Shown one piece after another: positions 1,092 through 34,265 of a stretch of DNA of 64,000 bases. How positions within the stretch are numbered: the stretch's first letter is position 1; every line of letters begins with the position of its first letter. Origin of the DNA: Candidatus Micrarchaeota archaeon (lineage in GTDB: Archaea; Micrarchaeota; Micrarchaeia; Anstonellales; Bilamarchaeaceae); NCBI GenBank assembly GCA_016932815.1, contig JAFGCC010000014.1, positions 80,129-144,128 of the forward strand. The letters run 5' to 3'. A program made the position numbers and the translations under genes. Below the pieces are notes generated by a model. That model ran no database searches. It was not told where the DNA came from and saw only the letters and a list, made by a program, of their open reading frames with translations.

Positions 1092-1658
1092 ATGGAGCAT
1101 GAGGAGGGCCCTTATTCCGGGCTCGTGAAGGCGCCTGGCGGGACCCTGCTGCCCACAAGGGAACTGCTAATTTCGGTGCACGAGGAGGTCATTGCGGATT
1201 CCATAAAGACCACTAATATCGGGCACCATGGGATACGCGACGACTCCATACTAGATTACCTGTGCTACAAGCTTGAAGGGCATCCGTACAAGAAAGATGC
1301 GGTATCCAACGCATATTATGTGGGGACCGAAGTGTTCTTCAACATCGCGTGCAGGCACCCGTTTATAGACGGGAACAAGCGCACCGCGTATGCATCTTCT
1401 ACCCTGCTTGTTTTTGCGAACCTCTCTGAGGCGCTTGGGGAGGGGGAGCTGGAGCTCTCAGAAGAGGCGGATACTGGGCAGGTAATTGAGAAAATTGCGC
1501 GCTGGGGGGAGGGCTCGGATAGTTCGTCTTTATTGGAGCTTGTGCGGGAAGCGGGGCTGCTTGGGAAGGGGCGCACGGACATAAACGAGGAGGACGTAAA
1601 AAGGTTTATTAATAAATTCCTGCGCGAAACAATACGCGTGCACGAGGAGGATGCTTAG
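1092..1658 (+). CDS. Fic/Doc family protein (Doc death-on-curing type toxin)
   Basis: Contains the Doc-type Fic motif HPFIDGNKRTA (HxFxDGNKR). Confidence 0.8.
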   Translation: MEHEEGPYSGLVKAPGGTLLPTRELLISVHEEVIADSIKTTNIGHHGIRDDSILDYLCYKLEGHPYKKDAVSNAYYVGTEVFFNIACRHPFIDGNKRTAYASSTLLVFANLSEALGEGELELSEEADTGQVIEKIARWGEGSDSSSLLELVREAGLLGKGRTDINEEDVKRFINKFLRETIRVHEEDA

Positions 1659-2766: not shown

Positions 2767-3765
2767 CTAGAGGAGTTCGTCGCGCCTATCGACTATGTGC
2801 GCGGAATCCGGCCCGGTCCCAATTAGGGTAACCGGGACTTCGAGCCTCGCTTCCACCTGGTCTAGGAACCTCCGTGCCTCGGTTGTGAGGTCCGAATACT
2901 TCTTCTTGCCCTCGTTTCCGGGGAAGCGGATGTCCATCTTGGTTACCGCAATCTGGGTTGCGCCATTAACTTCGGCTGCGAATTTCAGGTCTTCCCAGTG
3001 GAGTTCGGGCGAAGTCCTCCTTGGGCGCCCGGTAACCGTCCCGTATTCCTGGAAATTGAGCTTGACTGCCTCTTCCACCCCGATTTCGCCTGGGAAAGGG
3101 CCGTTTCCCACCCTTGTGGTGTAGGATTTTATAGTCATTATTACATGGTCTATTGAAGTTGGGCCAAGCCCTACATCCGCTGCTAAGGAGGAAGCGGAAA
3201 CGTCCTTGGAAGTTACAAATGGGTAAGTTCCATAAAGAACGGAAAGCATGAAGCCCTGGGAGCCTTCAACGAATACGCTTTTTGCCTTGTGCACTTCCCT
3301 TGCAACATCTATTATGTATTTTTGCATTTTGGGCGAATCCCCTATGAAAGTTGCATCCCTTCTTGCCCTTGAAGTAACTGCTGGGCCGCACCCTGTTTTT
3401 GTTGTGCCGATTTTTCCGCTTAATGAGGATTTTGCATCATCTTCTTTGTGCTTGGCGGTGATTTCGGTGCACCTTCTGTCCACGAAAACCCTTCCTTCTG
3501 TTCCGGTCATTTCCACCTCTTTTAGGAACACTTCAGGGTCCACGGACACGCCTGCGCCAATCATTACTTTTGAAGAGGCATTTACAAAACCTGAGGGGAG
3601 CATCCTGAGCGAATACCAGTTGCCGTTGTAGAGCACCTTGTGCCCGGCATTCGGGCCCACTCCGCCCCTTGCCACAATCTCCGGTGTGTCTGTTAATGCG
3701 ATGTGGGAAGAAATTTTCCCTTTTCCTTCGTCTCCGTATTGCCCGCCTACTAGAATAGTCCTCAT
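2767..3765 (-). CDS. purA: Adenylosuccinate synthetase (short archaeal form)
   Basis: The N-terminal P-loop GGQYGDEGKGK is present together with GHKV, TTKTGCGPA and the ~330-aa length typical of archaeal PurA. Confidence 0.9.
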   Translation of the reverse strand: MRTILVGGQYGDEGKGKISSHIALTDTPEIVARGGVGPNAGHKVLYNGNWYSLRMLPSGFVNASSKVMIGAGVSVDPEVFLKEVEMTGTEGRVFVDRRCTEITAKHKEDDAKSSLSGKIGTTKTGCGPAVTSRARRDATFIGDSPKMQKYIIDVAREVHKAKSVFVEGSQGFMLSVLYGTYPFVTSKDVSASSLAADVGLGPTSIDHVIMTIKSYTTRVGNGPFPGEIGVEEAVKLNFQEYGTVTGRPRRTSPELHWEDLKFAAEVNGATQIAVTKMDIRFPGNEGKKKYSDLTTEARRFLDQVEARLEVPVTLIGTGPDSAHIVDRRDELL

Positions 3766-3855
3766 TGTTCCACCCGATGCATGTTTAATCTTAAATTAAA
3801 AGTAATATTAATTAAAGGTTAGCTTGTTTCCGTGTGCGGGGATTTTCTGCTCAAA

Positions 3856-3957
3856 TGGTGGCTTGCGCCCAAGCGCAGGGATATTCTAATTAAGAGGTGG
3901 GCTTGCGCCCAAGTGCGGATACCTGCCGCTTAAAGGGGGCTTGCGCTTATTTGGCGG
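3856..3957. repeat. Three direct copies (about 39-bp spacing) of an imperfect palindromic motif GGCTTGCGCCCAAGYGC (TGCGC-N4-GCGCA core)
   Basis: Copies lie at about 3856-3879, 3897-3919 and 3935-3957 (the third is degenerate and overlaps the stop of the 599-aa gene). They sit between the 3' end of that gene and the AT-rich purA promoter. Confidence 0.6.
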
Positions 3958-5746
3958 CTTCTTCGCGTTTTTTATTGGATGCCCAGTCCGCGCCCAGTTC
4001 CACCCTCCATGCGGGCTTTCCCCCGGATACGTAGTCCACTGTGCGCACTGTGTATACGTTTAGGTTGAGCTGCGGGTAGCTCCTTAGGAGTGTTCCGAGT
4101 GCTATTGCATCGCGCTCGGCTTCTTTTCCCGTGCCCAGTTCAATTGTAGCTGCGGCTTCGCATTCCGGGTCCAGGTTGTTTCTGAGATAAGTGTAGATGC
4201 CGCCCACCTGCTTATCATCCAGGGCGAGGCGGCGCAACTTTGTTAGCAGGCCCACTTCGGATGGAGAACTCTCTAAGAGGGAATCGTGGTTTTTTGCCCA
4301 TATCCCCGTTGTTGCTTCTTCAAGCATTTCTTGTTTCTCCTTGTTTTTGCCTGCATAAGCGTGCATCCTGGCAAACCAGCGCGAGTATCCTGCAACATCC
4401 GCTTCAAGGGCGCGGATTTCCAGGGAGAGCTTCCTTTGCTCCTGCCTTGTCCTGCGCTTGGGGGCCTGGAGCTCTTGGAGCTTTTTTTGGAGCAGGGCGT
4501 ATTTTTTTAGGAACTCCCTGCTAAAAGCACGGTCGGAATAGAGCTTGAAGAATGAATCAAATTTCTTTTGCCGAACATTCTCGTTTGCGAATTCCACTTC
4601 CCCTAAGAGCCTCCTTAGTTCTGCGAACTTTCCCCCGGATTTTGAAGTGTGGACTGATGCGCGGTACCAGGCGTCTTCGGAGTAATCGGCGGCTTTGGTT
4701 CCCACCTTGCAGATGGCTTTTGAGGGGATTGCTTCCAGGGCAGATTCCACGCCATCCTCCCTGAAGTTCATGGTTTCTTTTCCGGGGGTGGATTCTTCCG
4801 CATTTATGGGCTTTATTATCAGCGTGCTTGTGGCACCGTCCCATCCCCAGTAGTCGGTAACGTATCCTTCTTCCCTAAGCGCGTCGTTCAGCTTCTCCAG
4901 TGCTTTGTGGTGCCTTTTAGGCTCTTCGGAGAACGCATCCAGTTTCCAATCCCTCCCATCCTCCAAGCCAGACAGCAAATCCTCGCGAATGTCCTTGTAG
5001 TCAGACGGTTTCGCGCCTATTGCATGAATATATTCGTCCAAGGCTTTGGAAACCCTGGCTTTCCACCCCTTTTGCCTGGGCGCCTCGGCACTGCCTTTAG
5101 CAGGAGATGGAACGGTTTCCCCGGAGATTTTTTGCTCTTTTTCAGATGGGGATTCCGCGGGCTCTCTTGCATCAATTACGAGTATGCTATGCGAGCCCCC
5201 TTTGGAAGAAATGCCCGGAAAATAGTGGGTTCGGTACCCTTCTTCATTAAGCACTTTGTTTAGCTCCTTCATTTTTGCATGGTCGTCTTCTGTGCCCTGC
5301 TCGGTTATCCTGAGCAGGCGGTCTTTTGCCGGGCCGGACAATACATCATTCATAAAGGGATTCCTAAAAGATGCGGGCGCATCCATCAACCAGAAAAATT
5401 CATCCATGGCCTTGAGAACCCTAACCCTGGATGGGCCCCTTTCACCTGAGGAGATATACATCCGGGTTTCCCCGCTCAGTTTTGAGTCCATGAACTCAAT
5501 GCCATATCCGGCGTTCTTGAGCAGTTTTCCGAGCTTTTTTAGCCGGACATGCAACTTCATGGGGGCGGAAGCGGGCACACTTATCCACCAGGGCCTTTTG
5601 TCCCTGAATCCGGAATTTAGGGCATTGCGGAACTCCTGCGTTGGGCTTTGGCTTCCGGGGCATTTGCCAATGTCGTCTATGAGCATGCTCAACTCATTGA
5701 GGAGGGGGTCTTTTGGTTTTGGTTTCGGCTTCTGCTTCTGGGCCAT
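3947..5746 (-). CDS. Uncharacterized protein, tandem paralog 1 (599 aa): K/P-rich N-terminus, three ~45-aa modules, coiled-coil, conserved C-terminal domain
   Basis: The three internal modules have the pattern HKxLExLNxALxEEGYxVxY....STLxI. The C-terminal ~290 aa is highly similar to the 5879..7348 protein (ICKVGTKAADYSEDAWYRASV, YTVRTVDYVSGGKPAWRVELGADWA). Confidence 0.8.
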   Translation of the reverse strand: MAQKQKPKPKPKDPLLNELSMLIDDIGKCPGSQSPTQEFRNALNSGFRDKRPWWISVPASAPMKLHVRLKKLGKLLKNAGYGIEFMDSKLSGETRMYISSGERGPSRVRVLKAMDEFFWLMDAPASFRNPFMNDVLSGPAKDRLLRITEQGTEDDHAKMKELNKVLNEEGYRTHYFPGISSKGGSHSILVIDAREPAESPSEKEQKISGETVPSPAKGSAEAPRQKGWKARVSKALDEYIHAIGAKPSDYKDIREDLLSGLEDGRDWKLDAFSEEPKRHHKALEKLNDALREEGYVTDYWGWDGATSTLIIKPINAEESTPGKETMNFREDGVESALEAIPSKAICKVGTKAADYSEDAWYRASVHTSKSGGKFAELRRLLGEVEFANENVRQKKFDSFFKLYSDRAFSREFLKKYALLQKKLQELQAPKRRTRQEQRKLSLEIRALEADVAGYSRWFARMHAYAGKNKEKQEMLEEATTGIWAKNHDSLLESSPSEVGLLTKLRRLALDDKQVGGIYTYLRNNLDPECEAAATIELGTGKEAERDAIALGTLLRSYPQLNLNVYTVRTVDYVSGGKPAWRVELGADWASNKKREEAAK

Positions 5747-5774
5747 CCGGTTGCACCTAAACTAATAATACGCA

Positions 5775-5804
5775 AAAGAAGATATAAATGTTATTGGGTT
5801 GTGC
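5775..5804 (-). promoter_or_regulatory. Putative TATA/BRE promoter of the 599-aa paralog (duplicated block aaagaagatataaatgttattgggttg)
   Basis: On the coding strand this reads ..CCAATAACATTTATATCTTC.. about 37-44 nt upstream of the ATG at 5746. An almost identical block lies at 7388-7417. Confidence 0.5.
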
Positions 5805-5878
5805 GTCATTGGAATGTGGGTATTGGGTTGTACGCTGGGAGCTAAACGGTGTTAATTGGGATTGGAAAGCACCCCTGT

Positions 5879-7348
5879 TCATGGGGAATTGGTTTCCTCC
5901 CGTTTTTTGCTGGTTGCCCAGTCTGCGCCCAGTTCCACCCTCCATGCGGGCTTTCCTTCAGATATGTAATCAATGGTGCGCACGGTATATACGTTCAGGT
6001 TGAGCTGCGGGTAGCCCCTTAGGAGCTCTCCGAGGGCCATTGCCTTGCGCTCTGCTTCTTTTCCCGTGCCCAATTCAATTGTAGCTGCGGCTTCGCATTC
6101 CGGGTTGAGGTTGTTTTTGAGGTATGCGTAGATGCTGCGCAACTGCTTGTAATCTAATGAGAGGCGGCGCAGCTTATTGAGCAGGTCCACTTCGGAGGGG
6201 GCAGAGTTCATGAGGGATTCGTGGCTTTTTGCCCAAATGGTTTTTTGGGCTGCTGCAAGCTTTGCCTTCTTCTCCGTGTTCTTGCCTGCGTAGGCGCTCA
6301 TTCTGGCTACCCATCTTGAGTATCCTGCAACGTCTGCTTCTATGGCGCGGATTTCAAGGGAGAGCTTCATTTGCTCCCCCCTTGTCTTGCCCTGCAGCGC
6401 CTCAAATTCTTTGAGCTTTTTTTGGAGGAGCGAGTATTTCTTCAGGAATTCCTTGCTGAAAGCGGCGTCGGAGTAGAGCTTGAACATGGAGTCGAATTTC
6501 TTCTGCCGGACGTTCTCGTTTGCAAATTCCACCTCCCCTACCAACCTGCGGAATTCCGCGAATTTTCCCCCTGTTTTTGAGATGTTGACCGATGCGCGGT
6601 ACCAGGCATCTTCGGAGTAGTCTGCGGCTTTGGTTTCCACTTCGCAGATGGCTTTTGAGGGAACGGAATCGCGGGCAATCCAGTTTCCTCCCAGAATGGA
6701 TTTCATGTCCTCCTCTGAGAATAGTATAGTTAGTGTGCTAATGCCATCCTCACTACGATAATCGACTTTGTATCCCTCTTCTACAAGCGCTTTGTTGAGG
6801 GCTTCTAGGGTTTTATGGGCCTCCCTGGGATCGGACCTTCGTAGCTCTAACTCCCATTGGTTTTTCAAGCCAGAACGCAATTGCTCCCGGAGATTCTCGT
6901 AGTCTGAGGCGTCCCCATCCGTTGCACGTATGAATTCATCCAGGGCTCTGAAAACCGGGGAGTCCGGCTCCAGTCCCCGCTTTTTCTTGGCATCCCCCTG
7001 GGCGGGAGAAGGGACTGTTTCCTTTGAGATTTCCGGTTCGCGTGGGGCATGGACCAGCAGTATAGCTCCCAGGCCTTTCCGGTTTCCCCTAAAAGAAATT
7101 TCGTATCCCTCCCCTTCAAGCAACTTCCCAAGTTTCTCTAGCTTATCATAGAGGTGCTGGGGATACTCGTCTGGAAACTGCAGGTAGGTCCATGGCTTGG
7201 ATTTGAAAGAGCACAGGTTCTGGACATCTTGTTTTATTCCCTCTGGAATCTCTCGCCCCAGCGACTCTTCGATTGCGAGTACCATTTCATCTAGGGCTTT
7301 TTCAACCTTGGATTCCTGTTTGGGCTTCTGCACTTGCTTCTGGGCCAT
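5879..7348 (-). CDS. Uncharacterized protein, tandem paralog 2 (489 aa) of the 3947..5746 gene, with two ~45-aa modules
   Basis: It begins MAQKQ like its neighbour. The C-terminal domain is conserved (ICEVETKAADYSEDAWYRASV, YTVRTIDYISEGKPAWRVELGADWA). Confidence 0.8.
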   Translation of the reverse strand: MAQKQVQKPKQESKVEKALDEMVLAIEESLGREIPEGIKQDVQNLCSFKSKPWTYLQFPDEYPQHLYDKLEKLGKLLEGEGYEISFRGNRKGLGAILLVHAPREPEISKETVPSPAQGDAKKKRGLEPDSPVFRALDEFIRATDGDASDYENLREQLRSGLKNQWELELRRSDPREAHKTLEALNKALVEEGYKVDYRSEDGISTLTILFSEEDMKSILGGNWIARDSVPSKAICEVETKAADYSEDAWYRASVNISKTGGKFAEFRRLVGEVEFANENVRQKKFDSMFKLYSDAAFSKEFLKKYSLLQKKLKEFEALQGKTRGEQMKLSLEIRAIEADVAGYSRWVARMSAYAGKNTEKKAKLAAAQKTIWAKSHESLMNSAPSEVDLLNKLRRLSLDYKQLRSIYAYLKNNLNPECEAAATIELGTGKEAERKAMALGELLRGYPQLNLNVYTVRTIDYISEGKPAWRVELGADWATSKKREETNSP

Positions 7349-7387
7349 CTGAATCGCACCTAAACTAAAAGATGCATAAAAGAAGAT

Positions 7388-7417
7388 ATAAATGTTATTG
7401 GGTTGCGCAGGCAGGGA
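7388..7417 (-). promoter_or_regulatory. Putative TATA promoter of the 489-aa paralog (duplicate of the 5775-5804 block)
   Basis: The same 30-bp block lies upstream of both paralogs, including the gcacctaaactaa leader. Confidence 0.5.
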
Positions 7418-7468
7418 TTAAGGAACAGGAGATGTAGCGGTTTGGGAAACTGCCGAACGATGTGGAGG

Positions 7469-8425
7469 TTATTGGGAAGAGTCCAGCTTCCGCACGAACA
7501 CTTCAATGCATTTTTCGAGGGTGGCTTCGGGGCGCTCTTTTGAGGAACAGCCTGCTGCTTTCGGGTGCCCGCCGCCTCCGCCTCCAAGCTCAGTTGCCGC
7601 TCCCCTCATTACTTCATTTAGGGGAACGGGGACGTGCTTGCGGGCACGGGAGGAAACGCGGGTTTCCTTTTCCTCCATATTCCAGTGCGCGGCGAAAACC
7701 ACGTCGGAGAATTCTGAGAGGGAGGAGGAAATAAGCGATTCGTGCGCGGGAACTATGACCGTTGCTATTGAGTAGCCGCCATGCGCGCTAATGTGCATTT
7801 TCTTGAACATCTCCAAAACGAAGAGTTTTTCGTCTAGTTCGAGTTCCGGCTCCGCGGATTCCAGGAGTTCCGCATAAGGCTTGCCGCATTTTTCTAGGAG
7901 GGATGCGAGCGTTGAAAACGTTGAAGCGCGCGAGGACTTGAAGCGCGCGGTATCCGAGATTATTGCAACGGCGAGCACGTGGGAGATTTCGGGGGAAACC
8001 GAAGGGAGGAGCTCTGCTAACATTTCAGCAGTAGAAGGCGCATCCTCATCGCGCAGGAGAAGCGGCGTGGTGATGCCGTTGCCTTCGCCTTGGGGATGGT
8101 GGTGGTCTATTACCAGCTTAACCTTCCATTTTTTGGCTTCGGGAAGCAAAACCGTGGTTGAGCAGTCAACTACCAGCATCCCATCGTAATCGGAAGGATT
8201 CAGCTTCCCAAGCTCGGAGAATTCCATGCCAAGTTTTTCCGCAAAGGCTTTTGCCGGGGAATCCATCTTGTCCGGATAGGCGAGGGTGGAATTGGGGAAT
8301 GCGCTCTTTAGTGCGTAGCAGCAGCAGAGCGCATCCAAATCCAGGTTCTTGTGGCTGGTAATTACGAAGCGCGAATCCCTGTTCCCTTCTAGAAACGAGA
8401 GAAAACGCTCCTTAAGCTGCATCAT
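7469..8425 (-). CDS. DHH/DHHA1 family phosphoesterase (NrnA/RecJ-like nanoRNase)
   Basis: DHH motifs are present (LDLDAL, VVDCS, IDHHH) along with the DHHA1 motif GGGGGGHPKAAG. Length is 318 aa. Confidence 0.85.
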   Translation of the reverse strand: MMQLKERFLSFLEGNRDSRFVITSHKNLDLDALCCCYALKSAFPNSTLAYPDKMDSPAKAFAEKLGMEFSELGKLNPSDYDGMLVVDCSTTVLLPEAKKWKVKLVIDHHHPQGEGNGITTPLLLRDEDAPSTAEMLAELLPSVSPEISHVLAVAIISDTARFKSSRASTFSTLASLLEKCGKPYAELLESAEPELELDEKLFVLEMFKKMHISAHGGYSIATVIVPAHESLISSSLSEFSDVVFAAHWNMEEKETRVSSRARKHVPVPLNEVMRGAATELGGGGGGHPKAAGCSSKERPEATLEKCIEVFVRKLDSSQ

Positions 8426-8759
8426 CGGAAGAACCCATCTCTTCCTGGAGCTTCTTCTGGAGCCGGGTTAGTTCGGCACGGAGCTTCTCGTCCTGCCCAT
8501 CTAGCGTCTTCATGCGGCTCTCCATAAGCTCTTTCTTTTCTGCGAGGTCCTTTTTGGCCTCTTCGGCGGTGGTTTTTATCATCACGTTCCCGATGCTTTT
8601 GTATACTTCGCCGGATGATTTTGCGAGCTCGTCCTGCGCCAGCTTGATTTCCCCTAGCTGTATCTGGATTTGCTGCCTCTGCATCATTACCGCCTGGAGC
8701 TGCCTCTCAAAATTCTGCAGCCTTGCAATGTCCCTTTCCAATTCTTCGTTTTCGCTCAT
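8412..8759 (-). CDS. pfdB: Prefoldin beta subunit
   Basis: 115 aa with a coiled-coil–beta-hairpin–coiled-coil layout (LQNFERQLQAVMMQRQQIQ...GNVMIKTT...LRAELTRLQKKLQE). It sits in the exosome superoperon context. Confidence 0.85.
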   Translation of the reverse strand: MSENEELERDIARLQNFERQLQAVMMQRQQIQIQLGEIKLAQDELAKSSGEVYKSIGNVMIKTTAEEAKKDLAEKKELMESRMKTLDGQDEKLRAELTRLQKKLQEEMGSSDDAA

Positions 8760-12428: not shown

Positions 12429-12710
12429 ATTTCCCACGTTGTTGCTTAAAGCATCAAACAATGACACTTTTCTCAAGTGCCGCCAAAAATGAGCAGGCGG
12501 TTTTGTTTTCACTCAGACTCTTTAATTTATTATAGATGTGTTTATAAACGTTGCTAATTGCCCCCTTCCGGTTTGCATGGGCATTTTGCGCATAAATATG
12601 TTGGCGTGGCGAAGAAGGGCGGGCGGGGGCTTTCCCCCTTCTTCCATTTTTCCATCCTGCCGAGGGCAGCCGGCATAAGCTTTTTATCCGTTGCCACAGA
12701 AACGGGAGGT

Positions 12711-15518
12711 ATGTTCAGGAATAACTTGGCCATATTGTTTTTTGTGTTGATTGTGTCTTCGGCTTCTTTTGCCATAACCCACACCTGTGGAATCATCAAC
12801 GAGTCGGGCGAATATACGCTCAACGAAAGCCTCCAAGGCCTGGGAACCCCTGTTAGCGGGTTCAGCATAGGGGATAGTTGCATAACCATACAAACGAGCA
12901 ACGTAACTCTTGACTGCGACGGGTTCAACATATCCTGCGAAATTTGCCTCTCAGACGCCATAGGGATAGCGGTAAACGGCTCCGCTTCGGAACCCCGCAC
13001 CAACATAACAATCAGGAACTGCCCCGGAATCAACAATTACGATTACGGGATTGCGCTCAAGTACGTGTATAATAGCACGATACAAAACAGCACCATGCTC
13101 AACAGCTCAGCCTCCACGGATTATGGGCTCCACATGGAAAACTGCTCCGGTGTAAATGTTACCAACAACACCTTCTACAATAACGGCAACGGAATAGACA
13201 TGAACTATTCTTACTCTAACGATGTTTTCAACAATACCTTCTTTTCAAACAACAATGACGTGTTCATGGAGGAGTGCGACTACAACGACATTATAGACAA
13301 CGTATTTTCCCTTAGCGACAACGGAATTTATCCATATTCCTCAGACCACAACTTCATTGCAAACAATACGCTGTCCTCAATGAGCAGCTACGCGATAGAC
13401 CCTGAGGTATCCAACTACAATAGGATAATAGAGAACATCATCCATAATGCATATGTGGGAATTAGCCTGTATGACCAATGCTACTACAATTTTATCTACA
13501 ACAACACCATTGAGGGCTCGGATGAGGGCATTGAGCTGTATGAATATACCAATTACAACAACGTGACCCAAAACGTAATAGAAGGTGGAACTTACGGAGT
13601 ATACGGATACCTGGCAAGCGGAAACAGGCTCGTGGACAACGAGATATACGAGAACACGGATTATGGGGTTTATTTTGAGGAAGCTTGCTCCAACAACACC
13701 CTCCTAAACAACACCGTGCGCAACCAGACCGACGAAAACGGAGTCTACATGGATGCAGGCTCCAATGGGAACAACCTCACGAACAATACGATGTACGGAC
13801 AGGACTATTCCATTAACATCCGCCATGGCAGGGATAATAGGATATGGGGCAACCACATCTGGGATTCGTATATCGGAGTAGAATTTTATTTTACGAACTC
13901 CAGCTACATATACGAAAACGAGATTAATACGACCGAAGAATCGATTGAGATTGACTGGGGATACAACAACAGCGTGGAGAACAACACAATCCGTGACAGC
14001 CCGTGTGACGGGATATATTTCAACAATGCCAACGGCACGGATATCCTCAACAACGTTATATCCAATTCCGAGTGCGAGGGGATATACATCTCGTCCTTCA
14101 CTTCGGGCATTGTTATTGCAAACAACACGGTAAGCGGAAGCGATTATGACGAAATATGCCTATACCGTGTAGAGAATATCGTGATTGCAGACAACGTTGC
14201 CTACAACGGGCGTGTGTCTAACATTTACTTAGGGCGCTCCAACAACATTACTGTAATCAACAATACATTATACGGTGGTGGTGCCGCATTCTACCTGAAC
14301 GAGAGCAACTACACGATAACCGAAAACGAAATCCGCGGGCCAGACGGAACCCGCACGGAATACAATCTTCTCTCGGCAGAAGACGTCATGACTATTGAGG
14401 CGTACTCGATAAACTGGAGCGGTTCCCCTTCTTCCTTCCCAAGCGGGAAGGCATCCTTTGAAGGCAAGCTACTGAACATAACGACCGTTGCGGGAAGCCC
14501 GAGCATAGACACGATTTCCTGGCTCTGGCTTGATTCGGAAAGCTCCGGACATGATGAGGATACGTTTGAACTCTGGATGTACAACGGCTCGGACTGGTCG
14601 CTTTTGAATGACACTCCAGACACGTCATCCAATATGTTGACCAACTACTCCCTCTCTCCTGCGAGCATATATGGAATCCTAGAGGATTCTAGCTCATCCG
14701 GAGAGGCGGAAGGCAATGACGTGGATGATTATGAGTGCATGACTTCCTCGGACTGCGATGAGTGCTATATCTGCAGCGGCCATGAGTGCGTGCTTCCATC
14801 CGGCTCGTGCGCAACTGCCTCCGATTGTTCAGGGGGATACCCGTTCTACAACTGCGAGGAGTGCTCCTGCGCAGGATACCAATGCAACGTTGATTCCGAT
14901 TGCAACGGGGAAGGATATTCCTGCGAGAACGGGGCGTGCATACCCCCGGAGTGTGTAGAAAATGAGGACTGCAAAGGGCTGGGGCTAAAATACTACTGCA
15001 GCCCGGGCTATGAATGCGTGCTTGGCGAATGCTACACGAGCGCAGACTGCATTGCAGGCTCAACCTGCTCCAATTACGTTTGCATCCCGCCCGAATGCAC
15101 AATTGACGATAATTGCGGGCCGGGAAAGATGTGCGAGAACTACAAATGCGTTCCCGGTGAATGCAGGACGAACGCAGACTGCGATGAAGGGTTCTACTGC
15201 GATAACAGGGTTTGCCAGAAAGACATAACGCCCGGCGGAACAGGCGGAAGCGGCGGGGGCTCTTCCGGAGGCTCCGGTGGAACCGGGGCTGCGCATGTTC
15301 CTCCTCCTGGAACTGAGGGGGAAAACGCTACCCAGCAGATGCAGCAGGGCTTCCCGTTCCTTGAAGGGGACAGCTCCGGTGCGGGAATCCTGCCGGATGT
15401 AGTATTTAGCGAGGAAACGAGGATTTCAAGCGGATGGATAATCCTCTTCTTCCTGGTGCTTGGGGGCGCTGTTTACTTCCTGCACAATAAAAGGAAGGCG
15501 AGGGTGGAGAAGGAATAG
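12711..15518 (+). CDS. Large surface protein: signal peptide, parallel beta-helix (PbH1-like) repeats rich in N-x-S/T sequons, Cys-rich EGF-like modules, Gly/Ser linker, C-terminal TM anchor with basic tail
   Basis: It begins with the signal peptide MFRNNLAILFFVLIVSSASFA. Repetitive N-rich beta-helix units follow (NNTFYNNGNGIDMNYS...), with roughly 60 or more N-x-S/T sequons. Repeated xDCxxGxxCxNxxCxPxEC modules come next, then the linker GGTGGSGGGSSGGSGGTG. The C-terminus is GWIILFFLVLGGAVYFLHNKRKARVEKE. Confidence 0.8.
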   Translation: MFRNNLAILFFVLIVSSASFAITHTCGIINESGEYTLNESLQGLGTPVSGFSIGDSCITIQTSNVTLDCDGFNISCEICLSDAIGIAVNGSASEPRTNITIRNCPGINNYDYGIALKYVYNSTIQNSTMLNSSASTDYGLHMENCSGVNVTNNTFYNNGNGIDMNYSYSNDVFNNTFFSNNNDVFMEECDYNDIIDNVFSLSDNGIYPYSSDHNFIANNTLSSMSSYAIDPEVSNYNRIIENIIHNAYVGISLYDQCYYNFIYNNTIEGSDEGIELYEYTNYNNVTQNVIEGGTYGVYGYLASGNRLVDNEIYENTDYGVYFEEACSNNTLLNNTVRNQTDENGVYMDAGSNGNNLTNNTMYGQDYSINIRHGRDNRIWGNHIWDSYIGVEFYFTNSSYIYENEINTTEESIEIDWGYNNSVENNTIRDSPCDGIYFNNANGTDILNNVISNSECEGIYISSFTSGIVIANNTVSGSDYDEICLYRVENIVIADNVAYNGRVSNIYLGRSNNITVINNTLYGGGAAFYLNESNYTITENEIRGPDGTRTEYNLLSAEDVMTIEAYSINWSGSPSSFPSGKASFEGKLLNITTVAGSPSIDTISWLWLDSESSGHDEDTFELWMYNGSDWSLLNDTPDTSSNMLTNYSLSPASIYGILEDSSSSGEAEGNDVDDYECMTSSDCDECYICSGHECVLPSGSCATASDCSGGYPFYNCEECSCAGYQCNVDSDCNGEGYSCENGACIPPECVENEDCKGLGLKYYCSPGYECVLGECYTSADCIAGSTCSNYVCIPPECTIDDNCGPGKMCENYKCVPGECRTNADCDEGFYCDNRVCQKDITPGGTGGSGGGSSGGSGGTGAAHVPPPGTEGENATQQMQQGFPFLEGDSSGAGILPDVVFSEETRISSGWIILFFLVLGGAVYFLHNKRKARVEKE

Positions 15519-20099: not shown

Positions 20100-22067
20100 C
20101 TACTGCTCAACCCAGTTTACGAAAACCTTGCCGCCTTTGCGGTAGATAGGGCGGATTAGCTCCCCTTCCCCTGTGAGTTCAAAGGAGGTAATCCGGGTGC
20201 GGAGTTCGGGCGCAAAAAGCGTTGCGCCCCATGTTCTGGAGATGCGCGGGCCGATTGATTCTTTTCCCTTGCCAGTTGAGCACGAATTGAGCACAATCGT
20301 AAGGTCCTCGGAGAAGAGGGGGCGGAGCGCCCTCATCTCGGCCTCATCTGTCAAATCCAGGAGGCTTTCTTCTGAGCTTCCGGGGCCCAGGCGGATTGAA
20401 TCCGCGGTTCCGTGGGCGCCAATCATCAGGGCGCTTATGCCGAAATACTTTTCACCGAATTTTTCGGCTTTTTCATAGAACTCGCGCTCGTTTTCCGCTT
20501 CCACAAATATTATGTTGTAGTATCCTTTTTCCACAAGCTCCCTGCGGACTCCGAACATCTGCGCGTCGTAGAGGACTCCGATGTCGTCGTATTTGCCCTG
20601 CATTACCAAAAGAAGGGGGCGGCCATCCGCCTTGTCCCCGATGTGCCCATAGAGGGATTCCAGCTCTTTTTTGGAGTATCTTGCGAAGTATTCTATCCCG
20701 AACTCGTTGTAGAGTTCCCTTGTTTTCTGTGCCCCGATTGTGCCTTGTGCGTATGCGAAATTTATGAAGACTTCGCGGTCTTCTATTGTCACTCCGGCTT
20801 CACGCGCGAGCTTCCTTCCCGCCTTCCACTTGCCCTTGTAATCCGAGAGGTTGCCTATCAGGGCTTTGGCAGGGATTTTATCCGGATTGTCCAGTAGGGA
20901 GAGCACTTCCTTCACGTTCTCTGGCTTCCCGGTTTTCTCCGCTTCGCTTAAAGTGAGGAGGATTAGGGAGTAGGCTGAGGCTTCTGCGAGTTTTGTTATC
21001 CTGGAGGGGTCAAGGGATAGTTCCTTTGCGACTAGCCTTTTGGACATGAGGCCGAATGCCGCCTCCTTCTTCCTTCCGCAGATGCGGCAGGCCTCTTCAA
21101 AAATGCCCGCAACCTTTGCGGGGTCTTTTGCGAATTCCGCTCCAAGGGGCCTTAGGGCGGAGAAGGCGTATTCCGCAGCCTCCCCGGCGGCCCGCCCTAT
21201 CCTCACTAGTGCATCGGTTACCTTTTTTGGGTTTTTTGCAAATGCCATCGCCACTTCTTCGCTTCCTATTACGCGGAATGCTTCCCAGGAGGGGCCTCCT
21301 CCTGCGCTCTTTCCTATGCGGGAGAAAAGGCTTGCCACCCTTGAGGGGTTTTCTAAGAACATGGGGAATATGCCTTCGCGCTCAATTGCCCAGAATGCGG
21401 TGCCTGCGGCATCCCCCGCCGCTTTGCCTATCCTGCGCAATGCCCTTGAAATGTTCGCGGGGCGTTTTGCGAATTCCCTGGAGGCATCCTCGCTGGCTAG
21501 TGCCCAGAACGCCTCTGGGGCATGGGTGCCTATGCGGGCGAATGCGTCCGCAACCAGTTTTGGGTTGCGGGCGAATGCGGTGGCTACGGGCTCCTGGGAG
21601 AGCAGGAAAAATGCCCCCTCCCTGGATTTTGCAGCAACGCGCCCTATCCTTGCGAACGCTGATGCTATTTTGGCAGGGTCTTTGGAGAATGCGCTGGAGA
21701 GTTCGCGGTTTGAGAGTGCTGCGAGGGCATCCGGAGTGCCTTCCCTTGCTGCCCTGGATATCATGAAGAACGCGCCGGGGTGGAGGGTTAGGAGCCTTGA
21801 GAGGCCCTCGTCGCTGAAGCGGTTTAGGGCGGCTTCCGAATTTTCCCCGGAATGGGAGATTATCTTTTTTAGGGTGTGCGCAACCCTGTTTAGCCGCTGG
21901 AAGTTGCCGGTTTTGAGGATTGCCTGCGCTATTTGGGGCGGAAGTTGTGCTCCCACCCTCTCTTCTAGCTCCCTTTGCACGTAATCCGGGGTGAGAGTGG
22001 GGGTGGCCAGGAGCCTTCCGCTTAACCTGGCATCGTGGGTGCGCCCTTTTAGTTTTCCGCTGGACAT
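20100..22067 (-). CDS. Helical-repeat / caspase-like (CHAT-like, clan CD) domain protein, family member A (655 aa)
   Basis: The N-terminus has ...LTPDYVQRELEE, followed by at least seven ~35-aa repeats (AFAKNPKKVTDALVRIGRAAGEAAEYAFSAL). The C-terminal domain carries REVFINFAYA, GIEYFARYSKKELESLY, RPLLLV, YNIIFVEAENEREFYEKAEKFGEKYFGISALMIGAHG, then ~45 aa, then LTIVLNSCSTGKG. Confidence 0.85.
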   Translation of the reverse strand: MSSGKLKGRTHDARLSGRLLATPTLTPDYVQRELEERVGAQLPPQIAQAILKTGNFQRLNRVAHTLKKIISHSGENSEAALNRFSDEGLSRLLTLHPGAFFMISRAAREGTPDALAALSNRELSSAFSKDPAKIASAFARIGRVAAKSREGAFFLLSQEPVATAFARNPKLVADAFARIGTHAPEAFWALASEDASREFAKRPANISRALRRIGKAAGDAAGTAFWAIEREGIFPMFLENPSRVASLFSRIGKSAGGGPSWEAFRVIGSEEVAMAFAKNPKKVTDALVRIGRAAGEAAEYAFSALRPLGAEFAKDPAKVAGIFEEACRICGRKKEAAFGLMSKRLVAKELSLDPSRITKLAEASAYSLILLTLSEAEKTGKPENVKEVLSLLDNPDKIPAKALIGNLSDYKGKWKAGRKLAREAGVTIEDREVFINFAYAQGTIGAQKTRELYNEFGIEYFARYSKKELESLYGHIGDKADGRPLLLVMQGKYDDIGVLYDAQMFGVRRELVEKGYYNIIFVEAENEREFYEKAEKFGEKYFGISALMIGAHGTADSIRLGPGSSEESLLDLTDEAEMRALRPLFSEDLTIVLNSCSTGKGKESIGPRISRTWGATLFAPELRTRITSFELTGEGELIRPIYRKGGKVFVNWVEQ

Positions 22068-22090
22068 CCGGTATGGATAGCTGCGAAGCA

Positions 22091-22100
22091 GTATATAATC
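22091..22100 (-). promoter_or_regulatory. TATA box (gtatataatc) about 25 nt upstream of family member A's start
   Basis: The same (G)TATATAA consensus recurs upstream of family members B, C, D, F and G. Confidence 0.45.
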
Positions 22101-22221
22101 TTATTGCATGGGCAGGCTTTGCTCCTAATCCCAAAGGAAGAGAAGACCTTGGGAGCAGATGCAGGAGAAAAGGGGCAATGCCGCATGGGCGCGGTTCGGA
22201 GGGGGTTTTGGGCTGGGAGTG

Positions 22222-24321
22222 TTATTGCGCATCCTGCCCTGCAAGGGGCTCTCCGCGCAGGAACCTGGTGCCTCCGGATTTGTATACTACGTTAAGTATT
22301 TTCCCTTGTTCGTCCCGCTCCAGTTTTTCTAGGTAAGTGTGGGAGCTGGGCGCAAAAAGCTCGGCTCCCCAGAGCTGGGATATCTTCGGGCCTATGCCCT
22401 TGGCTGTTAGGCAGGATTCCAGGATTATTAGGGGCTCGCCTACGAACAGGCCGTTTAGGGCGCGCATCTCCTTCTCGTCTGAGAGGTCGATGAAGTTGTC
22501 CTCTGACTCCCCTGGGCCCATGCGGATGTCCCTTGCGGTGCCGTGCCCGCCTAGTATGAGCGCGCTTATGCCAAAATACCTCTCTCCCAGCTCTTTTGCC
22601 TTCCTGTAGAACTGCTCTTCGGTTTCGGCCTCTATGAATATCGTGTTGTAGTAGCTGCCATTGCCTGCAAGCCCCTCTCTGGCCTTCGCCCCTCCGTAGA
22701 AGGCCTGTATGTCGTCGAACTTGTTGTAGGCTACTAAAAGGAGGGGGCGGTCGTCTCCGTTTTCCCCTATTTGCCCATATAGGGATTCAAGCTCCTCTTT
22801 TGAGTATCTTGCGAAATACTCAATTCCGAATTCCCTGTGTATTGCGATTGTTTTTTCCCTGCCTATCTTGTCCTGGGCGTAGGCGAAATTGATGAAGACT
22901 TCGCGGTCTTCTATTCCCACTCCGGCTTCGCGGGCTAGCTCCCGGCCCGCTTTCCAATGGTGGCGGTAATCGGTGAGCGGGGTTATGCCATAGACTGCAA
23001 AGAGGCGGTGAGGGTCGTCTAGGGCACTTAGCATTGATTCGATTGAATCGCGGTCGCCCCTCTTGAACGCGTCGCGGAGGTAGTAATAAACGTCCGTCTG
23101 GGAGAACGCTTCTGCAAGCCTTACTATCTTTTGGGGCTGCTCCAGGAACTCCCTGCCCCCAAAACCCTTGTGGGCTAGCGCGAAATAGAAGGAGAAGAGG
23201 AGCTGCTGCTTCCTTCCCGATATTTTGGAGGCTTCTATGAACGAATCCACCATTCCCATGGGGTTTTTGCAGAAGCTGTTGATGAAATCCCTGGAAGATA
23301 TGACTTCAAAGGCGCTCTTGAGTGCGATTCCGCGGGTGTTTCCGAGCTTTTCTAAGGCGTATGAGATGCCTTCTATGTTCTTTGAGAAGGGCGCGCTTGC
23401 CCATTGCGCGCAAAGCTTGGAGAAAGCCCTGCCGGAGTAGCCTCCCATTGAGTTGGCTATGCGGGCAAACGATTCCGCGGTTTTTGAGGGGTTTTTGGCG
23501 AATTCGATTGAAACTTCCCTGGTGGATAGGAGCAGGAAGGCGTCCACTGCGGCTTCCCCCAATGAGCTTGAGATTTTTTCGAACGCGGATGCGATTTCTT
23601 CTGGGTTCTTGGCGAATGCAAGTGCGGCTTCCCTGCGCTCCAATACGGAGAATGCATCGGAGGCGTTCTTGCCCGATGCTAGTGCGATTCTTGAGAGGGC
23701 CAGGGAGATTGCTTTGGGGTTCCTGGCGAATGCTGCTGAGAGGGGCTTGCTGCCTAGGAGCCAGAATGCTCCGGAGGAGTGGGCGCCTGAGTCCCTGATT
23801 ATGCTGAGGAATGCGGAGGAGATTGCTTTGGGGTTCTTGGCGAATGCTCCGGAGATTCCGGTTGTTGATAGTGCCCAGAGGGCTTCTGCCTTGTTCGCTT
23901 TTGCAGCCTTGCAGATTTCGGCTATTGCGTTGGATACCCCCGTGGGGTCTGCTGCGAATGCGCGGGCAACCGCATCCTGCTTTAGGGTGTCTAGGGCGCC
24001 AAGGAATTCGTCCTTTGCTGCGGCGCAGATTCTTGAAAATGCCTGGGGGCTCTTCGAGATTTCCCTGGAGAGGTTTTCATCCCTGAATTCCTTTAGGAAG
24101 GATTCGATGCCGGCTCCGCTGGATTCGCAGATTAGCTTTATTGCGCGGGCAACCTGCCCCACCTTCTGGGGTTCGCAGGTGAGGGCGACTGCGCGGGAGA
24201 GCTGGGGAGGGATTTTTACGCCCAGCACTTTCTGAAGCTCGGCGTGGACGTAGCTGCGGTTGAATGAAGGCGAAAGTGAGAGCTTTCCGTTTTTTTCCCG
24301 CACGCACGCTTGAGTGGACAT
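22222..24321 (-). CDS. Helical-repeat / caspase-like domain protein, family member B (699 aa; Cys motif variant ESCLTAKG)
   Basis: The N-terminus has KLSLSPSFNRSYVHAELQK, followed by AFAKNP/AFARNP repeats. The C-terminal domain carries REVFINFAYA...GIEYFARYSKEELESLYG...RPLLLVAYN...YFGISALILGGHGTA...LIILESCLTAKG. Confidence 0.85.
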   Translation of the reverse strand: MSTQACVREKNGKLSLSPSFNRSYVHAELQKVLGVKIPPQLSRAVALTCEPQKVGQVARAIKLICESSGAGIESFLKEFRDENLSREISKSPQAFSRICAAAKDEFLGALDTLKQDAVARAFAADPTGVSNAIAEICKAAKANKAEALWALSTTGISGAFAKNPKAISSAFLSIIRDSGAHSSGAFWLLGSKPLSAAFARNPKAISLALSRIALASGKNASDAFSVLERREAALAFAKNPEEIASAFEKISSSLGEAAVDAFLLLSTREVSIEFAKNPSKTAESFARIANSMGGYSGRAFSKLCAQWASAPFSKNIEGISYALEKLGNTRGIALKSAFEVISSRDFINSFCKNPMGMVDSFIEASKISGRKQQLLFSFYFALAHKGFGGREFLEQPQKIVRLAEAFSQTDVYYYLRDAFKRGDRDSIESMLSALDDPHRLFAVYGITPLTDYRHHWKAGRELAREAGVGIEDREVFINFAYAQDKIGREKTIAIHREFGIEYFARYSKEELESLYGQIGENGDDRPLLLVAYNKFDDIQAFYGGAKAREGLAGNGSYYNTIFIEAETEEQFYRKAKELGERYFGISALILGGHGTARDIRMGPGESEDNFIDLSDEKEMRALNGLFVGEPLIILESCLTAKGIGPKISQLWGAELFAPSSHTYLEKLERDEQGKILNVVYKSGGTRFLRGEPLAGQDAQ

Positions 24322-24353
24322 TCGGTTACCCTAATTGGGAATTATGGCGTAAA

Positions 24354-24366
24354 GGATATATAATTG
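24354..24366 (-). promoter_or_regulatory. TATA box (ggatatataattg) upstream of family member B
   Basis: It lies about 35 nt upstream of the ATG at 24321. Confidence 0.4.
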
Positions 24367-24405
24367 TATTCGCCTTGAGGGGAAAACGTGCGGGCACTGA
24401 GGGGC

Positions 24406-26409: not shown

Positions 26410-26434
26410 CTTCTGCGATAGTTACTGTGGTAAA

Positions 26435-26445
26435 GGGTATATAAG
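26435..26445 (-). promoter_or_regulatory. TATA box gggtatataag upstream of family member C
   Basis: It lies about 30 nt upstream of 26409. Confidence 0.45.
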
Positions 26446-26497
26446 AATATTAGCTTTTTGGGTTCCCGCAAACGGCCTGCCGATTTTGGGGGGAGGA

Positions 26498-28174: not shown

Positions 28175-28207
28175 TTTCGAATCCTCCTAAGGTAAATAGC
28201 TCAGAAA

Positions 28208-28219
28208 GGGTATATAATG
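28208..28219 (-). promoter_or_regulatory. TATA box gggtatataatg upstream of family member D
   Basis: It lies about 35 nt upstream of the ATG at 28174. Confidence 0.45.
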
Positions 28220-28260
28220 CTAACTTCTGCGGGGGCGCTTGCCCTTGAGGGATGCGGGAG

Positions 28261-30147: not shown

Positions 30148-30167
30148 GTTTATTCCACCTTGGATTT

Positions 30168-32261: not shown

Positions 32262-32293
32262 TTTCCTGCGCCCCTGCAATTTAGTGGGGGCAG

Positions 32294-32303
32294 GAGATAT
32301 AAG
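32294..32303 (-). promoter_or_regulatory. TATA box upstream of family member F
   Basis: Sequence gagatataag. Confidence 0.4.
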
Positions 32304-32346
32304 TAGGTTGCGGATTTGATGCCGGAAACCGCCTGCAGGATTGCAG

Positions 32347-34104: not shown

Positions 34105-34149
34105 TTGGGACCCCCGTTGCCGGATACGTGCAATTCTTGTGGGGGGAAG

Positions 34150-34162
34150 CATATAAATAAAA
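34150..34162 (-). promoter_or_regulatory. TATA box (catataaataaaa) of family member G
   Basis: It lies about 46 nt upstream of the ATG at 34104, in the divergent region shared with the aIF2-beta promoter (TTTTTAAATG at 34218-34227). Confidence 0.45.
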
Positions 34163-34265
34163 CTGATGGGCGGGGATGCGGATTCATTCGGGAAAGAGGG
34201 CTCCCTCAATAATCCTGTTTTTAAATGTTCTCCCCCCATACTCTTCTGCAAACATATCTGGTGAA

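What the first reader, a model, noticed from the sequence alone, without database searches (positions are those of the whole stretch)
3947..7417. Tandem duplicated pair of modular proteins (599/489 aa) including duplicated promoter and leader
Two adjacent minus-strand genes have about 70% similar C-terminal ~290 aa (coiled-coil followed by ...YTVRT[VI]DY[VI]S.GKPAWRVELGADWA) and N-terminal regions built from 3 or 2 copies respectively of a ~45-aa module (HKxLExLNxALxEEGYxVxY...STLxI). The 30-bp promoter block aaagaagatataaatgttattgggttg and the gcacctaaactaa leader are also duplicated (5775-5804 and 7388-7417), as is the MAQKQ start. No known family was recognised. The modular alpha+beta repeat followed by a coiled-coil and a Gly/Trp-containing C-terminal domain may be a nucleic-acid or protein-binding scaffold.
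Basis: seen in the sequence. Interest (0 to 1): 0.55.

Follow-up and report, generated by a model that had tools for sequence, protein, structure and literature searches.

The report
Orphan Micrarchaeota paralog pair with twin promoters
Two neighbouring genes of a tiny symbiotic archaeon are a genuine duplicated pair, each with its own identical promoter, and they belong to a small protein family found so far only in this organism's close relatives that matches no known family or solved structure, so its function is still open.

Summary
Genes 3947-5746 (599 aa) and 5879-7348 (489 aa), both on the minus strand, are paralogs: 60% identity over 443 aa and 80% in the C-terminal core. Both are under purifying selection (dN/dS about 0.25). 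Each is preceded by an identical 28-nt archaeal BRE/TATA block and an identical 13-nt Shine-Dalgarno leader.

- The repeat module is about 88 aa (α-α-β-α-β-β), not 45.
- The second promoter copy lies at 7378-7405.
- The "coiled coil" is predicted as a bundle of short helices.

The organism is a Candidatus Micrarchaeota MAG. Nothing matched in Pfam, NCBIfam, PHROGs, PADLOC, PDB sequences or Foldseek (PDB, BFVD). An exhaustive HMMER scan of 1.84 billion representatives found about 10 relatives, all from close relatives of this organism. These sit in tandem arrays of 3-4 divergent paralogs. A second locus in the same genome includes a 2073-aa giant member.

A relative's orthologous locus carries only an out-of-frame remnant, so the pair is dispensable.

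The parts
3947..5746 (-). 599-aa paralog (NCBI JW721_02500). Layout: Lys-rich N-terminal peptide, three ~88-aa α/β modules, linker, basic core domain.
   Evidence: ORF; paralogy; dN/dS; NCBI name
5879..7348 (-). 489-aa paralog (NCBI JW721_02505). Same layout but with two modules.
3989..4636 (-). Conserved family core domain of the 599-aa protein (about residues 371-586): helical bundle followed by β-α-β-β.
   Evidence: A2 profile hit, iE 3e-93; alignments
5924..6568 (-). Conserved family core domain of the 489-aa protein (about residues 261-475). pLDDT 80-93, pI 9.6.
5438..5707 (-). Module 1 of the 599-aa protein.
5159..5437 (-). Module 2 of the 599-aa protein. This is the extra module absent from the 489-aa copy.
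4787..5062 (-). Module 3 of the 599-aa protein, the counterpart of module 2 of the 489-aa protein (45% identity, E 2e-21).
7046..7312 (-). Module 1 of the 489-aa protein.
6716..6961 (-). Module 2 of the 489-aa protein (pLDDT 73-92).
5774..5801 (-). Core promoter block of the 599-aa gene (CCCAATA element, BRE, TATA TTTATAT, C/T-rich tract). Identical 28/28 to the other copy.
7378..7405 (-). Core promoter block of the 489-aa gene.
5753..5765 (-). Leader with the Shine-Dalgarno GGTG (TTAGTTTAGGTGC), 6 nt before the ATG.
7356..7368 (-). Identical leader/Shine-Dalgarno block, 7 nt before the ATG.
5821..5829 (-). Distal AACCCAATA element, 29 nt upstream of the proximal one (599-aa gene).
7468..7476 (-). 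Distal CCCAATAAC element upstream of the 489-aa gene. It overlaps the stop codon of the DHH gene.

Best explanation
**What is shown**
- The pair is the youngest tandem duplication in an orphan multigene family that has so far been found only in one narrow clade of Candidatus Micrarchaeota.
- The duplicated unit carried promoter, leader and gene. One copy later gained or kept an extra internal 88-aa module.
- Each copy has its own archaeal BRE/TATA core promoter and a short Shine-Dalgarno leader. These elements are held identical by selection.
- Each promoter carries two CCCAATA elements.
- The family turns over by birth and death, and this pair is dispensable in a relative.

**What is inferred**
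- The twin promoters and shared CCCAATA elements mean the two genes are co-regulated and separately transcribed.
- The proteins are soluble, non-enzymatic modular adaptors. A basic helical-plus-βαββ core, together with the Lys-rich N-terminal peptide, would bind a polyanionic partner (nucleic acid or an anionic membrane surface). The acidic-to-neutral α/β modules on flexible linkers would dock other proteins.
- Module number (2 versus 3) would then set valency or reach.
For: **Paralogy and selection.**

**Promoter and leader under selection.**
- The two elements have 0/41 mismatches between the copies, although dS is 0.4-1.0 and the spacers between them differ.
- In the pseudogenised ortholog L005 the same elements carry 7/41 changes, while the spacer is intact.
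- Four of the nine CCCAATA sites in the window lie in the two 132-nt upstream regions.

**Family size and distribution.**
- An exhaustive HMMER scan gave 11 hits. One (P0012) is a spurious leucine-rich-repeat match.
- P0003 and P0004 come from the same MAG (JW721_01320 and JW721_01310).
- Tandem arrays occur in L001 (at least 4 paralogs), L002 (3) and L003 (3, including the 2073-aa member).
- All these loci are 77-89% identical at nucleotide level to this genome in syntenic parts.
- In the tree the two window genes are sisters (80% identity), then group with P0003/P0013 (54%).

**Dispensability.**
- L005 has the same flanking genes (DHH on one side, purA on the other) but only promoter + ATGGCCCAG fused out of frame to the last ~66 codons.
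- A type-C paralog is degraded in L003 but intact in L001.

**Protein properties.**
- No TM or signal segment (maximum KD19 0.56). Core pI 9.4-9.6. Other family members have pI 9.1-10.2.
- The AF2 model shows folded modules separated by low-confidence linkers.
- No catalytic family matched.
Against: - No binding partner or activity is shown.
- The core keeps invariant polar residues (E337, Y292, Y343, H376, numbered on the 489-aa protein), which could form an active site.
- The genes at the second locus (a TM protein, a secreted 1068-aa Cys-rich protein, a β-rich 551-aa protein) point to an envelope role rather than nucleic-acid binding.
- Basic N-termini also occur on housekeeping proteins here, RIO kinase and ribosomal P0, so the N-terminal 'tag' may carry no specific function.
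- The structure model rests on only 11 sequences.
Confidence: 0.45

Rival explanations
1. The proteins are components of a Micrarchaeota-specific cell-envelope or host-attachment apparatus. They would act as cytoplasmic or peripheral scaffolds tethered to the membrane, working with the TM, giant and secreted proteins encoded at the second family locus.
For: - In L003, L004 and L002 the family arrays sit directly after a conserved 169-203-aa TM protein. In L003 they are followed by a 551-aa β-rich protein and a signal-peptide-bearing 1068-aa Cys-rich repeat protein.
- Type B and C relatives, and an 88-aa mini-protein, share a tail motif DP[LM]..(L/I)D followed by a polybasic C-terminus, which could target anionic membranes.
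- Copy-number turnover is typical of interaction genes.
Against: - The window pair lacks that tail and has no TM or signal segment.
- It sits among housekeeping genes: the exosome superoperon, a DHH gene and purA.
- The link is based on neighbourhood only. No homology to known adhesins, pili or S-layer proteins was found.
Confidence: 0.2
2. The conserved core is a novel enzyme, for example a hydrolase or transferase that uses the invariant Glu, His and Tyr residues. The N-terminal modules would then be substrate-targeting domains.
For: - E337, H376, Y292 and Y343 are invariant, and W372 and S385 nearly so, across 13 sequences that are only 25-45% identical.
- A β-strand-GxG-helix signature (ELGTGKEAE) is nearly invariant.
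Against: - No catalytic family matched in Pfam, NCBIfam or PDB.
- D339 of the 'EAD' motif varies (D/N).
- Multi-paralog arrays with disordered tails and a 2073-aa fusion are unusual for enzymes.
- The invariant residues could be structural.
Confidence: 0.12
3. The genes derive from an integrated virus, plasmid or defence island, for example nucleocapsid-like proteins with basic arms, rather than from the cell's own gene set.
For: - Orphan status, basic termini, and presence/absence variation between relatives.
- One weak BFVD Foldseek hit, E 2e-4 but TM only 0.12.
Against: - No PHROG, PADLOC, phage or plasmid tblastn, or IMG/VR match.
- No integrase, tRNA or att-like boundaries were seen.
- GC and GC3 match the neighbouring genes.
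- Both loci are embedded in syntenic housekeeping context in several relatives.
Confidence: 0.05
4. The pair is an artefact: collapsed or mis-assembled variants of one gene, or non-coding ORFs.
For: The sequence comes from a metagenome-assembled genome.
Against: - The copies differ at 34% of nucleotides, with a clear excess of synonymous change (dN/dS 0.29).
- They have different module numbers.
- An independent assembly of a relative (L005) retains the same promoter, start and C-terminus at the same position.
- Homologs are conserved in other assemblies.
Confidence: 0.01

Closest known systems
LAGLIDADG homing endonuclease / WhiA N-terminal fold (I-DmoI, PDB 5ak9, 3hyj)
   Same: These are the top, but non-significant, Foldseek PDB hits. 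Both have two tandem small α/β modules with helices packed on antiparallel strands.
   Different: E is at least 0.1, probability 0.4-0.6, TM 0.1-0.25 and rmsd about 14 Å. No LAGLIDADG Pfam match. The module topology α-α-β-α-β-β differs from α-β-β-α-β-β-α, and no catalytic acidic motif was identified.
Small two-layer α/β sandwiches of the ferredoxin-like / ACT / RRM / TusA type
   Same: The N-terminal modules and the C-terminal end of the core are both predicted as β-α-β-β(-α) units. Weak Foldseek hits include a SirA/TusA-like protein (3hz7) and designed α/β proteins.
   Different: The fourth strand is missing. The resemblance to RRM/ACT is from my own knowledge of those folds and was not tested for RNP1/RNP2 or ligand-loop signatures. 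No sequence-profile match was found. The relationship between module and core end is not significant (hhalign P 0.075).
Proteins built as globular domain + disordered linker + short C-terminal docking peptide + basic tail (FtsZ C-terminal tail, SSB tip). Comparison from general knowledge.
   Same: Type B and C relatives (P0005, P0006, P0009, L001 424 aa) have this layout: core, a ~100-aa P/A/K/E linker, DPL..LD / GDFLGFD, then KKKRRR.
   Different: This is an analogy of layout only, with no homology. The two window proteins lack the tail altogether.
Tandem paralog clusters that evolve by recombination and birth-and-death (e.g. staphylococcal esaG immunity arrays, PMC9484751; tandem lipoprotein paralogs, PMC2568036; abstracts seen)
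   Same: Strings of non-identical same-strand paralogs whose copy number differs between close relatives.
   Different: Different organisms, proteins and functions. Here the one characterised deletion used a 7-nt microhomology (CCCAGAA/CCCGGAA), not long homologous tracts.

Membership tests
Any curated family (Pfam-A, NCBIfam) | Score above the curated gathering cut-off | tested here: not met
   Best hits were TEBP_beta (13.3 bits against a 26.6 cut-off) and DevB (13.4 against 129). Homologs also gave none.
Proteins with a solved structure (PDB) | Significant sequence, profile or Foldseek match | tested here: not met
LAGLIDADG / WhiA | LAGLIDADG helix motif with a catalytic acidic residue and the αββαββα domain | tested here: not met
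   No Pfam hit. Foldseek E 0.1-0.6, rmsd ~14 Å. Predicted topology differs.
   The AF2 model with an 11-sequence MSA gives nine helices of 5-22 residues at pLDDT 80-93. The 2-sequence model had one 32-residue helix. No dedicated coiled-coil predictor was run.
Anti-phage defence systems (PADLOC) | Match to a defence protein model | tested here: not met
   0 families for the pair, relatives and neighbours.
Viral or plasmid proteins | Match in PHROGs, BFVD, INPHARED phages, PLSDB plasmids or IMG/VR | tested here: not met
   PHROG best E 0.01 with no stretch passing. BFVD best TM 0.12. tblastn found no match. IMG/VR gave none.
Secreted or membrane proteins | Signal peptide or hydrophobic TM segment | tested here: not met
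   Maximum Kyte-Doolittle 19-residue mean is 0.56 and 0.54. The N-termini are Lys-rich and hydrophilic.
The orphan Micrarchaeota family defined here (core ~215 aa) | Full-length match to the core profile with invariant F285, Y292, E337, Y343, H376, G427, A436, L443, L451, V456 and W469 | tested here: met
   Both window proteins match the profile across positions 4-233 of 233, iE ~1e-93, though both are part of the profile. Independent members reach E 5e-66 to 4e-6 with the two-sequence profile. Invariant columns are listed.
The orphan Micrarchaeota family defined here | N-terminus M-[GAS]-[SQA]-[RK]-Q-[KR] and arrangement in same-strand tandem arrays | tested here: met
   MAQKQ in both window proteins. 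MGSRQK, MGAKQK or MNSRQK in relatives. Arrays seen in L001, L002 and L003.

The most novel reading that the evidence does not exclude
This family, together with the unrelated seven-gene orphan array at 20100-34401 in the same window, forms part of a rapidly turning-over repertoire of symbiosis proteins in Micrarchaeota. These would be structural or effector-like modules used at the contact with the host archaeon. They would be built on a previously unseen fold and co-regulated through a dedicated CCCAATA/TATTCGG-binding factor.
Probability: 0.1. Interest if true: 0.8.

Novelty: categorically new. Interest (0 to 1): 0.4.

Why it matters
DPANN archaea such as Micrarchaeota have roughly 1-Mb genomes and depend on host cells, yet a large share of their genes is uncharacterised. 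This organism devotes at least five genes to one orphan family, about 4,000 codons, including a 2073-aa member. It keeps the promoters of the youngest pair identical, which implies a function that matters under some conditions. The loss of the pair in a relative shows it is accessory.

If the core proves to be a new fold with a defined partner (nucleic acid, membrane or host-contact machinery), it would give a first handle on lineage-specific biology in this clade. It would also provide a compact example of promoter conservation after gene duplication in archaea.

'Categorically new' here means that the family could not be placed in any known family with the tools available. It does not mean a new mechanism has been demonstrated.

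Tried and rejected
**Database searches that returned nothing**
- Pfam, NCBIfam, PHROGs and PADLOC on the pair, relatives and neighbours.
- PDB by sequence and with profiles of the core (A2) and the module (A7).
- Rfam on 3000-8500.

**Structure searches**
- Foldseek against PDB and BFVD gave only sub-threshold hits. The I-DmoI/WhiA hits were rejected as noise: TM 0.1-0.25, rmsd ~14 Å.

**Homolog and locus searches**
- Word-index homolog searches returned only self hits, P0013 and P0011, or nothing.
- The search for related loci and the DNA search in GTDB genomes, IMG/VR and JGI metagenomes found nothing.
- Phage and plasmid tblastn found no match.

**Specific hypotheses tested**
- That the C-terminal α-α-β-α-β-β end of the core is a diverged copy of the N-terminal module. 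hhalign gave P 0.075, not significant.
- That the basic N-terminal 'tag' marks only orphan families. Rejected, because RIO kinase and ribosomal P0 have similar N-termini.
- That other orphan proteins (the seven-gene array, the 700-aa ORF, the L003 551- and 1068-aa proteins) share domains with the family. No BLASTP similarity.

**Literature**
- Searches for the sample accession and for Micrarchaeota paralog families gave nothing relevant.
Full report
**1. The observation**

The window is archaeal. The genes upstream of the finding on the minus strand form the exosome superoperon: SBDS, Rrp4, Rrp41, Rrp42, L37ae, Pcc1 and prefoldin β, followed by a DHH/DHHA1 protein. purA lies downstream. NCBI names the two proteins JW721_02505 and JW721_02500 of a 'Candidatus Micrarchaeota archaeon'.

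ORFs 3947-5746 (599 aa) and 5879-7348 (489 aa) both start MAQKQ. They align at 60% identity over 443 aa, E 3e-172. The last ~215 aa are 80% identical.

A codon-wise Nei-Gojobori comparison gives dN/dS 0.29 overall and 0.24 in the core. dS falls from about 1.0 to 0.4 towards the 3' end. Both are therefore coding genes under purifying selection that have diverged substantially, and not assembly variants.

**2. Promoter and leader**

CAACCCAATAACATTTATATCTTCTTTT is 28/28 identical at 5774-5801 and 7378-7405. It has no other match with up to 3 mismatches in 64 kb, and 0 are expected. TTAGTTTAGGTGC, which contains the Shine-Dalgarno GGTG, is exact at 5753-5765 and 7356-7368. The 8-9-nt and 6-7-nt spacers between these blocks and the ATG differ between the copies.

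Short identical blocks separated by diverged spacers, set against dS of 0.4 or more in the coding region, point to selection on the functional elements rather than a recent conversion tract.

The block looks like the promoters of other family genes in relatives: cAAA..TTTTAAA..C/T-rich, about 40 nt before the ATG, followed by a GGTG/GAGGT Shine-Dalgarno. I read it as BRE/TATA plus the proximal element. That reading rests on general knowledge of archaeal promoters. The transcription start is inferred, not shown.

CCCAATA occurs 9 times in the window. Four of these lie in the two 132-nt upstream regions, one proximal and one distal per gene (Poisson 5e-9; the two distal copies alone are still unexpected). 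This is a candidate regulator site.

**3. Protein anatomy**

AF2 with an 11-sequence alignment gave mean pLDDT 72. For the 489-aa protein the layout is:

| Residues | Feature | pLDDT |
|---|---|---|
| 1-12 | Lys-rich peptide | low |
| 13-101 | Module 1, α-α-β-α-β-β | about 62-82 |
| 102-129 | Low-confidence linker, partly conserved between the paralogs (ETVPSPA) | 29-39 |
| 130-211 | Module 2, α-α-β-α-β-β | about 73-92 |
| 212-260 | Low-confidence linker. It carries a stretch (VPSKAICEVETKAADYSEDAWYRASV) that is more conserved between the paralogs than the modules are | 22-39 |
| 261-475 | Core: nine helices of 5-22 residues, then β-α-β-β | 80-93 |

- **Modules.** The modules are about 88 aa each, 3 in the 599-aa protein and 2 in the 489-aa protein. 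Pairwise BLASTP E-values run from 1e-6 to 1e-21. The 599-aa protein equals the 489-aa protein plus one extra middle module.
The '45-aa module' is half of the real unit, and the 'coiled coil' is not supported.
- **Charge and solubility.** The core is basic (pI 9.4-9.6, net +7 to +11). The modules range from acidic to basic (pI 4.8-9.7; mostly 4.8-6.3). There is no hydrophobic segment (maximum KD19 0.56).
- **Core end versus module.** The C-terminal α-α-β-α-β-β part of the core has the same predicted topology as a module, but profile comparison does not support homology (hhalign P 0.075).

**4. What it is not**

No family matched in Pfam, NCBIfam, PHROGs or PADLOC for the pair or its relatives. 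No PDB sequence or profile hit was found.

Foldseek against PDB gave nothing below E 0.1. The top entries (I-DmoI, WhiA-N) have TM 0.1-0.25 and rmsd ~14 Å. BFVD gave one hit at E 2e-4 with TM 0.12, which is meaningless.

There were no phage, plasmid or IMG/VR matches and no Rfam match in the region.

**5. The family**

The word-index search found only the two window proteins. The exhaustive HMMER scan of 1.84 billion 50%-identity representatives, using the two-sequence profile, found 11 proteins. Ten are real and share the ~230-aa core. The eleventh, P0012, is a leucine-rich-repeat false positive.

P0003 (469 aa) and P0004 (2073 aa) are JW721_01320 and JW721_01310, so they come from the same MAG. 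Their locus, L003, reads in order:
- RpiA
- a 169-aa TM protein
- the remnant of a type-C paralog
- a 491-aa member
- a 428-aa member
- the 2073-aa member
- a 551-aa β-rich protein
- a 1068-aa secreted Cys-rich repeat protein
- aCPSF

Other loci show the same pattern:
- L004 is syntenic with L003 but has fewer members.
- L001 has at least 4 tandem paralogs, and L002 has 3 after the same TM protein.
- In syntenic parts all these contigs are 77-89% identical to this genome at nucleotide level.
- None of the 185,579 GTDB species representatives carries a relative.

Subfamilies seen in the tree:
- Type A: module(s) plus core. This includes the window pair and P0003/P0013.
- Type B: core, a disordered linker, DPL..LD / GDFLGFD, then a polybasic end.
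- Type C: a variant with ICSS..C.
- The giant member.

Almost all start M-[GAS]-[SQA]-[RK]-Q-[KR]. The window pair are sisters at 80% identity and are the youngest duplication in the family.

**6. Turnover**

L005 is the orthologous locus in a relative (JGI 3300039093). Its flanks are 86% and 83% identical to the window, and its gene order is Rrp42-L37ae-Pcc1-prefoldin-DHH-[380 bp]-purA.

The 380 bp hold the promoter, the leader and ATGGCCCAG, joined at a CCCAGAA/CCCGGAA microhomology to the last ~66 codons, and the join is out of frame. The remnant still shows an excess of third-position change (7/3/13), so the deletion is recent.

Its promoter and leader blocks carry 7/41 changes, while the spacer that is variable between the paralogs is identical to that of the 489-aa gene. 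This pattern fits relaxed constraint on exactly those elements that are frozen in the window.

Conversely, a type-C paralog intact in L001 is degraded in L003.

Informative sites in the last 183 nt split 14:13:8, essentially a star. The duplication is therefore about as old as the split between these organisms, or the 3' end has undergone some conversion.

**7. Mechanism**

Shown:
- Two separately promoted paralogs under selection that are dispensable in a relative.
- A soluble, basic, modular protein architecture.
- A clade-restricted family that evolves by birth and death.

Inferred, with about 0.45 confidence for the whole package:
- The proteins are non-enzymatic adaptors whose basic core and N-terminal peptide bind a polyanion (nucleic acid or anionic membrane).
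- The α/β modules on flexible linkers dock partners.
- The two genes are co-regulated through CCCAATA elements.

Rivals:
- Envelope or host-contact apparatus, based on the context of the second locus (0.2).
- A novel enzyme using the invariant E337, H376 and Tyr residues (0.12).
- Mobile-element origin (0.05).
- Artefact (0.01).

**8. Verdict**

The proteins are an orphan family. 'Categorically new' here means only that the family could not be placed in any known family with the searches that could be run.

Interest is moderate (0.4). This is not a surprise for specialists, because orphan paralog arrays are common in DPANN genomes. It is, however, a well-delimited, testable family with an unusually clean case of promoter conservation.

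Noticed in passing
window 20100-34401 (minus strand): Seven consecutive paralogous genes of 655, 699, 667, 558, 636, 747 and 684 aa. They are 35-46% identical pairwise (E 1e-101 to 1e-180) and none has a Pfam hit. Several start with basic N-termini followed by EKSEKLSL(K/T)P(A/S)LE. They are unrelated by sequence to the family in the finding. This is a second, larger orphan tandem array in the same window.
   Followed up: partly
L005 2456-2836 (ortholog of window 3766-7468): In a related organism the whole pair is replaced by a 380-bp remnant. Promoter + leader + ATGGCCCAG is fused out of frame to the last ~66 codons at a 7-nt microhomology. JGI calls a 51-aa ORF (P0007) there.
   Followed up: yes
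L003 2907-18341 (second locus of the same MAG): A gene string of a 169-aa TM protein, a type-C remnant, 491-aa, 428-aa and 2073-aa family members, a 551-aa protein and a 1068-aa secreted Cys-rich repeat protein. Almost all of it is 'dark': the only hit is a weak DUF7136 match, below Pfam's cut-off, on the 1068-aa protein.
   Followed up: partly
L003 13469-15124: The 551-aa protein starts MAQKTTEK, resembling the family's N-terminus. It ends ...FSVGGTIGIDF, an alternating-hydrophobic C-terminus with a terminal Phe that recalls the bacterial outer-membrane β-barrel signal. That is odd for an archaeon. This is my own reading and was not tested.
   Followed up: no
L003 ~5735, ~7195; L004 ~4100, ~5610; L001 ~3265 (upstream of type B and giant genes): These promoters share (T)ATTCGG (ATTCAG in L001) about 15 nt upstream of the BRE/TATA. 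TATTCGG is one mismatch from the reverse complement of the CCCAATA element in the window. This could be the same regulator site in the opposite orientation.
   Followed up: no
window 3860-3946 (minus strand, 3' of the 599-aa gene): Three copies of GCGCAAGCC, two of them within CTTGGGCGCAAGCC, which can form a short GCTTG/CAAGC hairpin. They lie between the stop codon and the purA promoter and may be a terminator or another small repeat.
   Followed up: no
L004 3787-4053; L003 3492-3842: A conserved 88-aa mini-protein made only of a basic N-terminus, FDPFGMP, a DP(L/M)GG..L(D/E) motif and a polybasic C-terminus. It looks like the family's tail without the core. In L003 it runs on into the remnant of a type-C gene.
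   Followed up: no
window 61257-63359 (+): A 700-aa ORF starting MGSDRRRKKPEH with no Pfam family, another orphan with a basic N-terminus.
   Followed up: no
window 1092-1658 (+) and 12558-15518 (+): A Fic/DOC-domain protein (188 aa) and a 986-aa NosD/right-handed β-helix protein lie near the locus.
   Followed up: no
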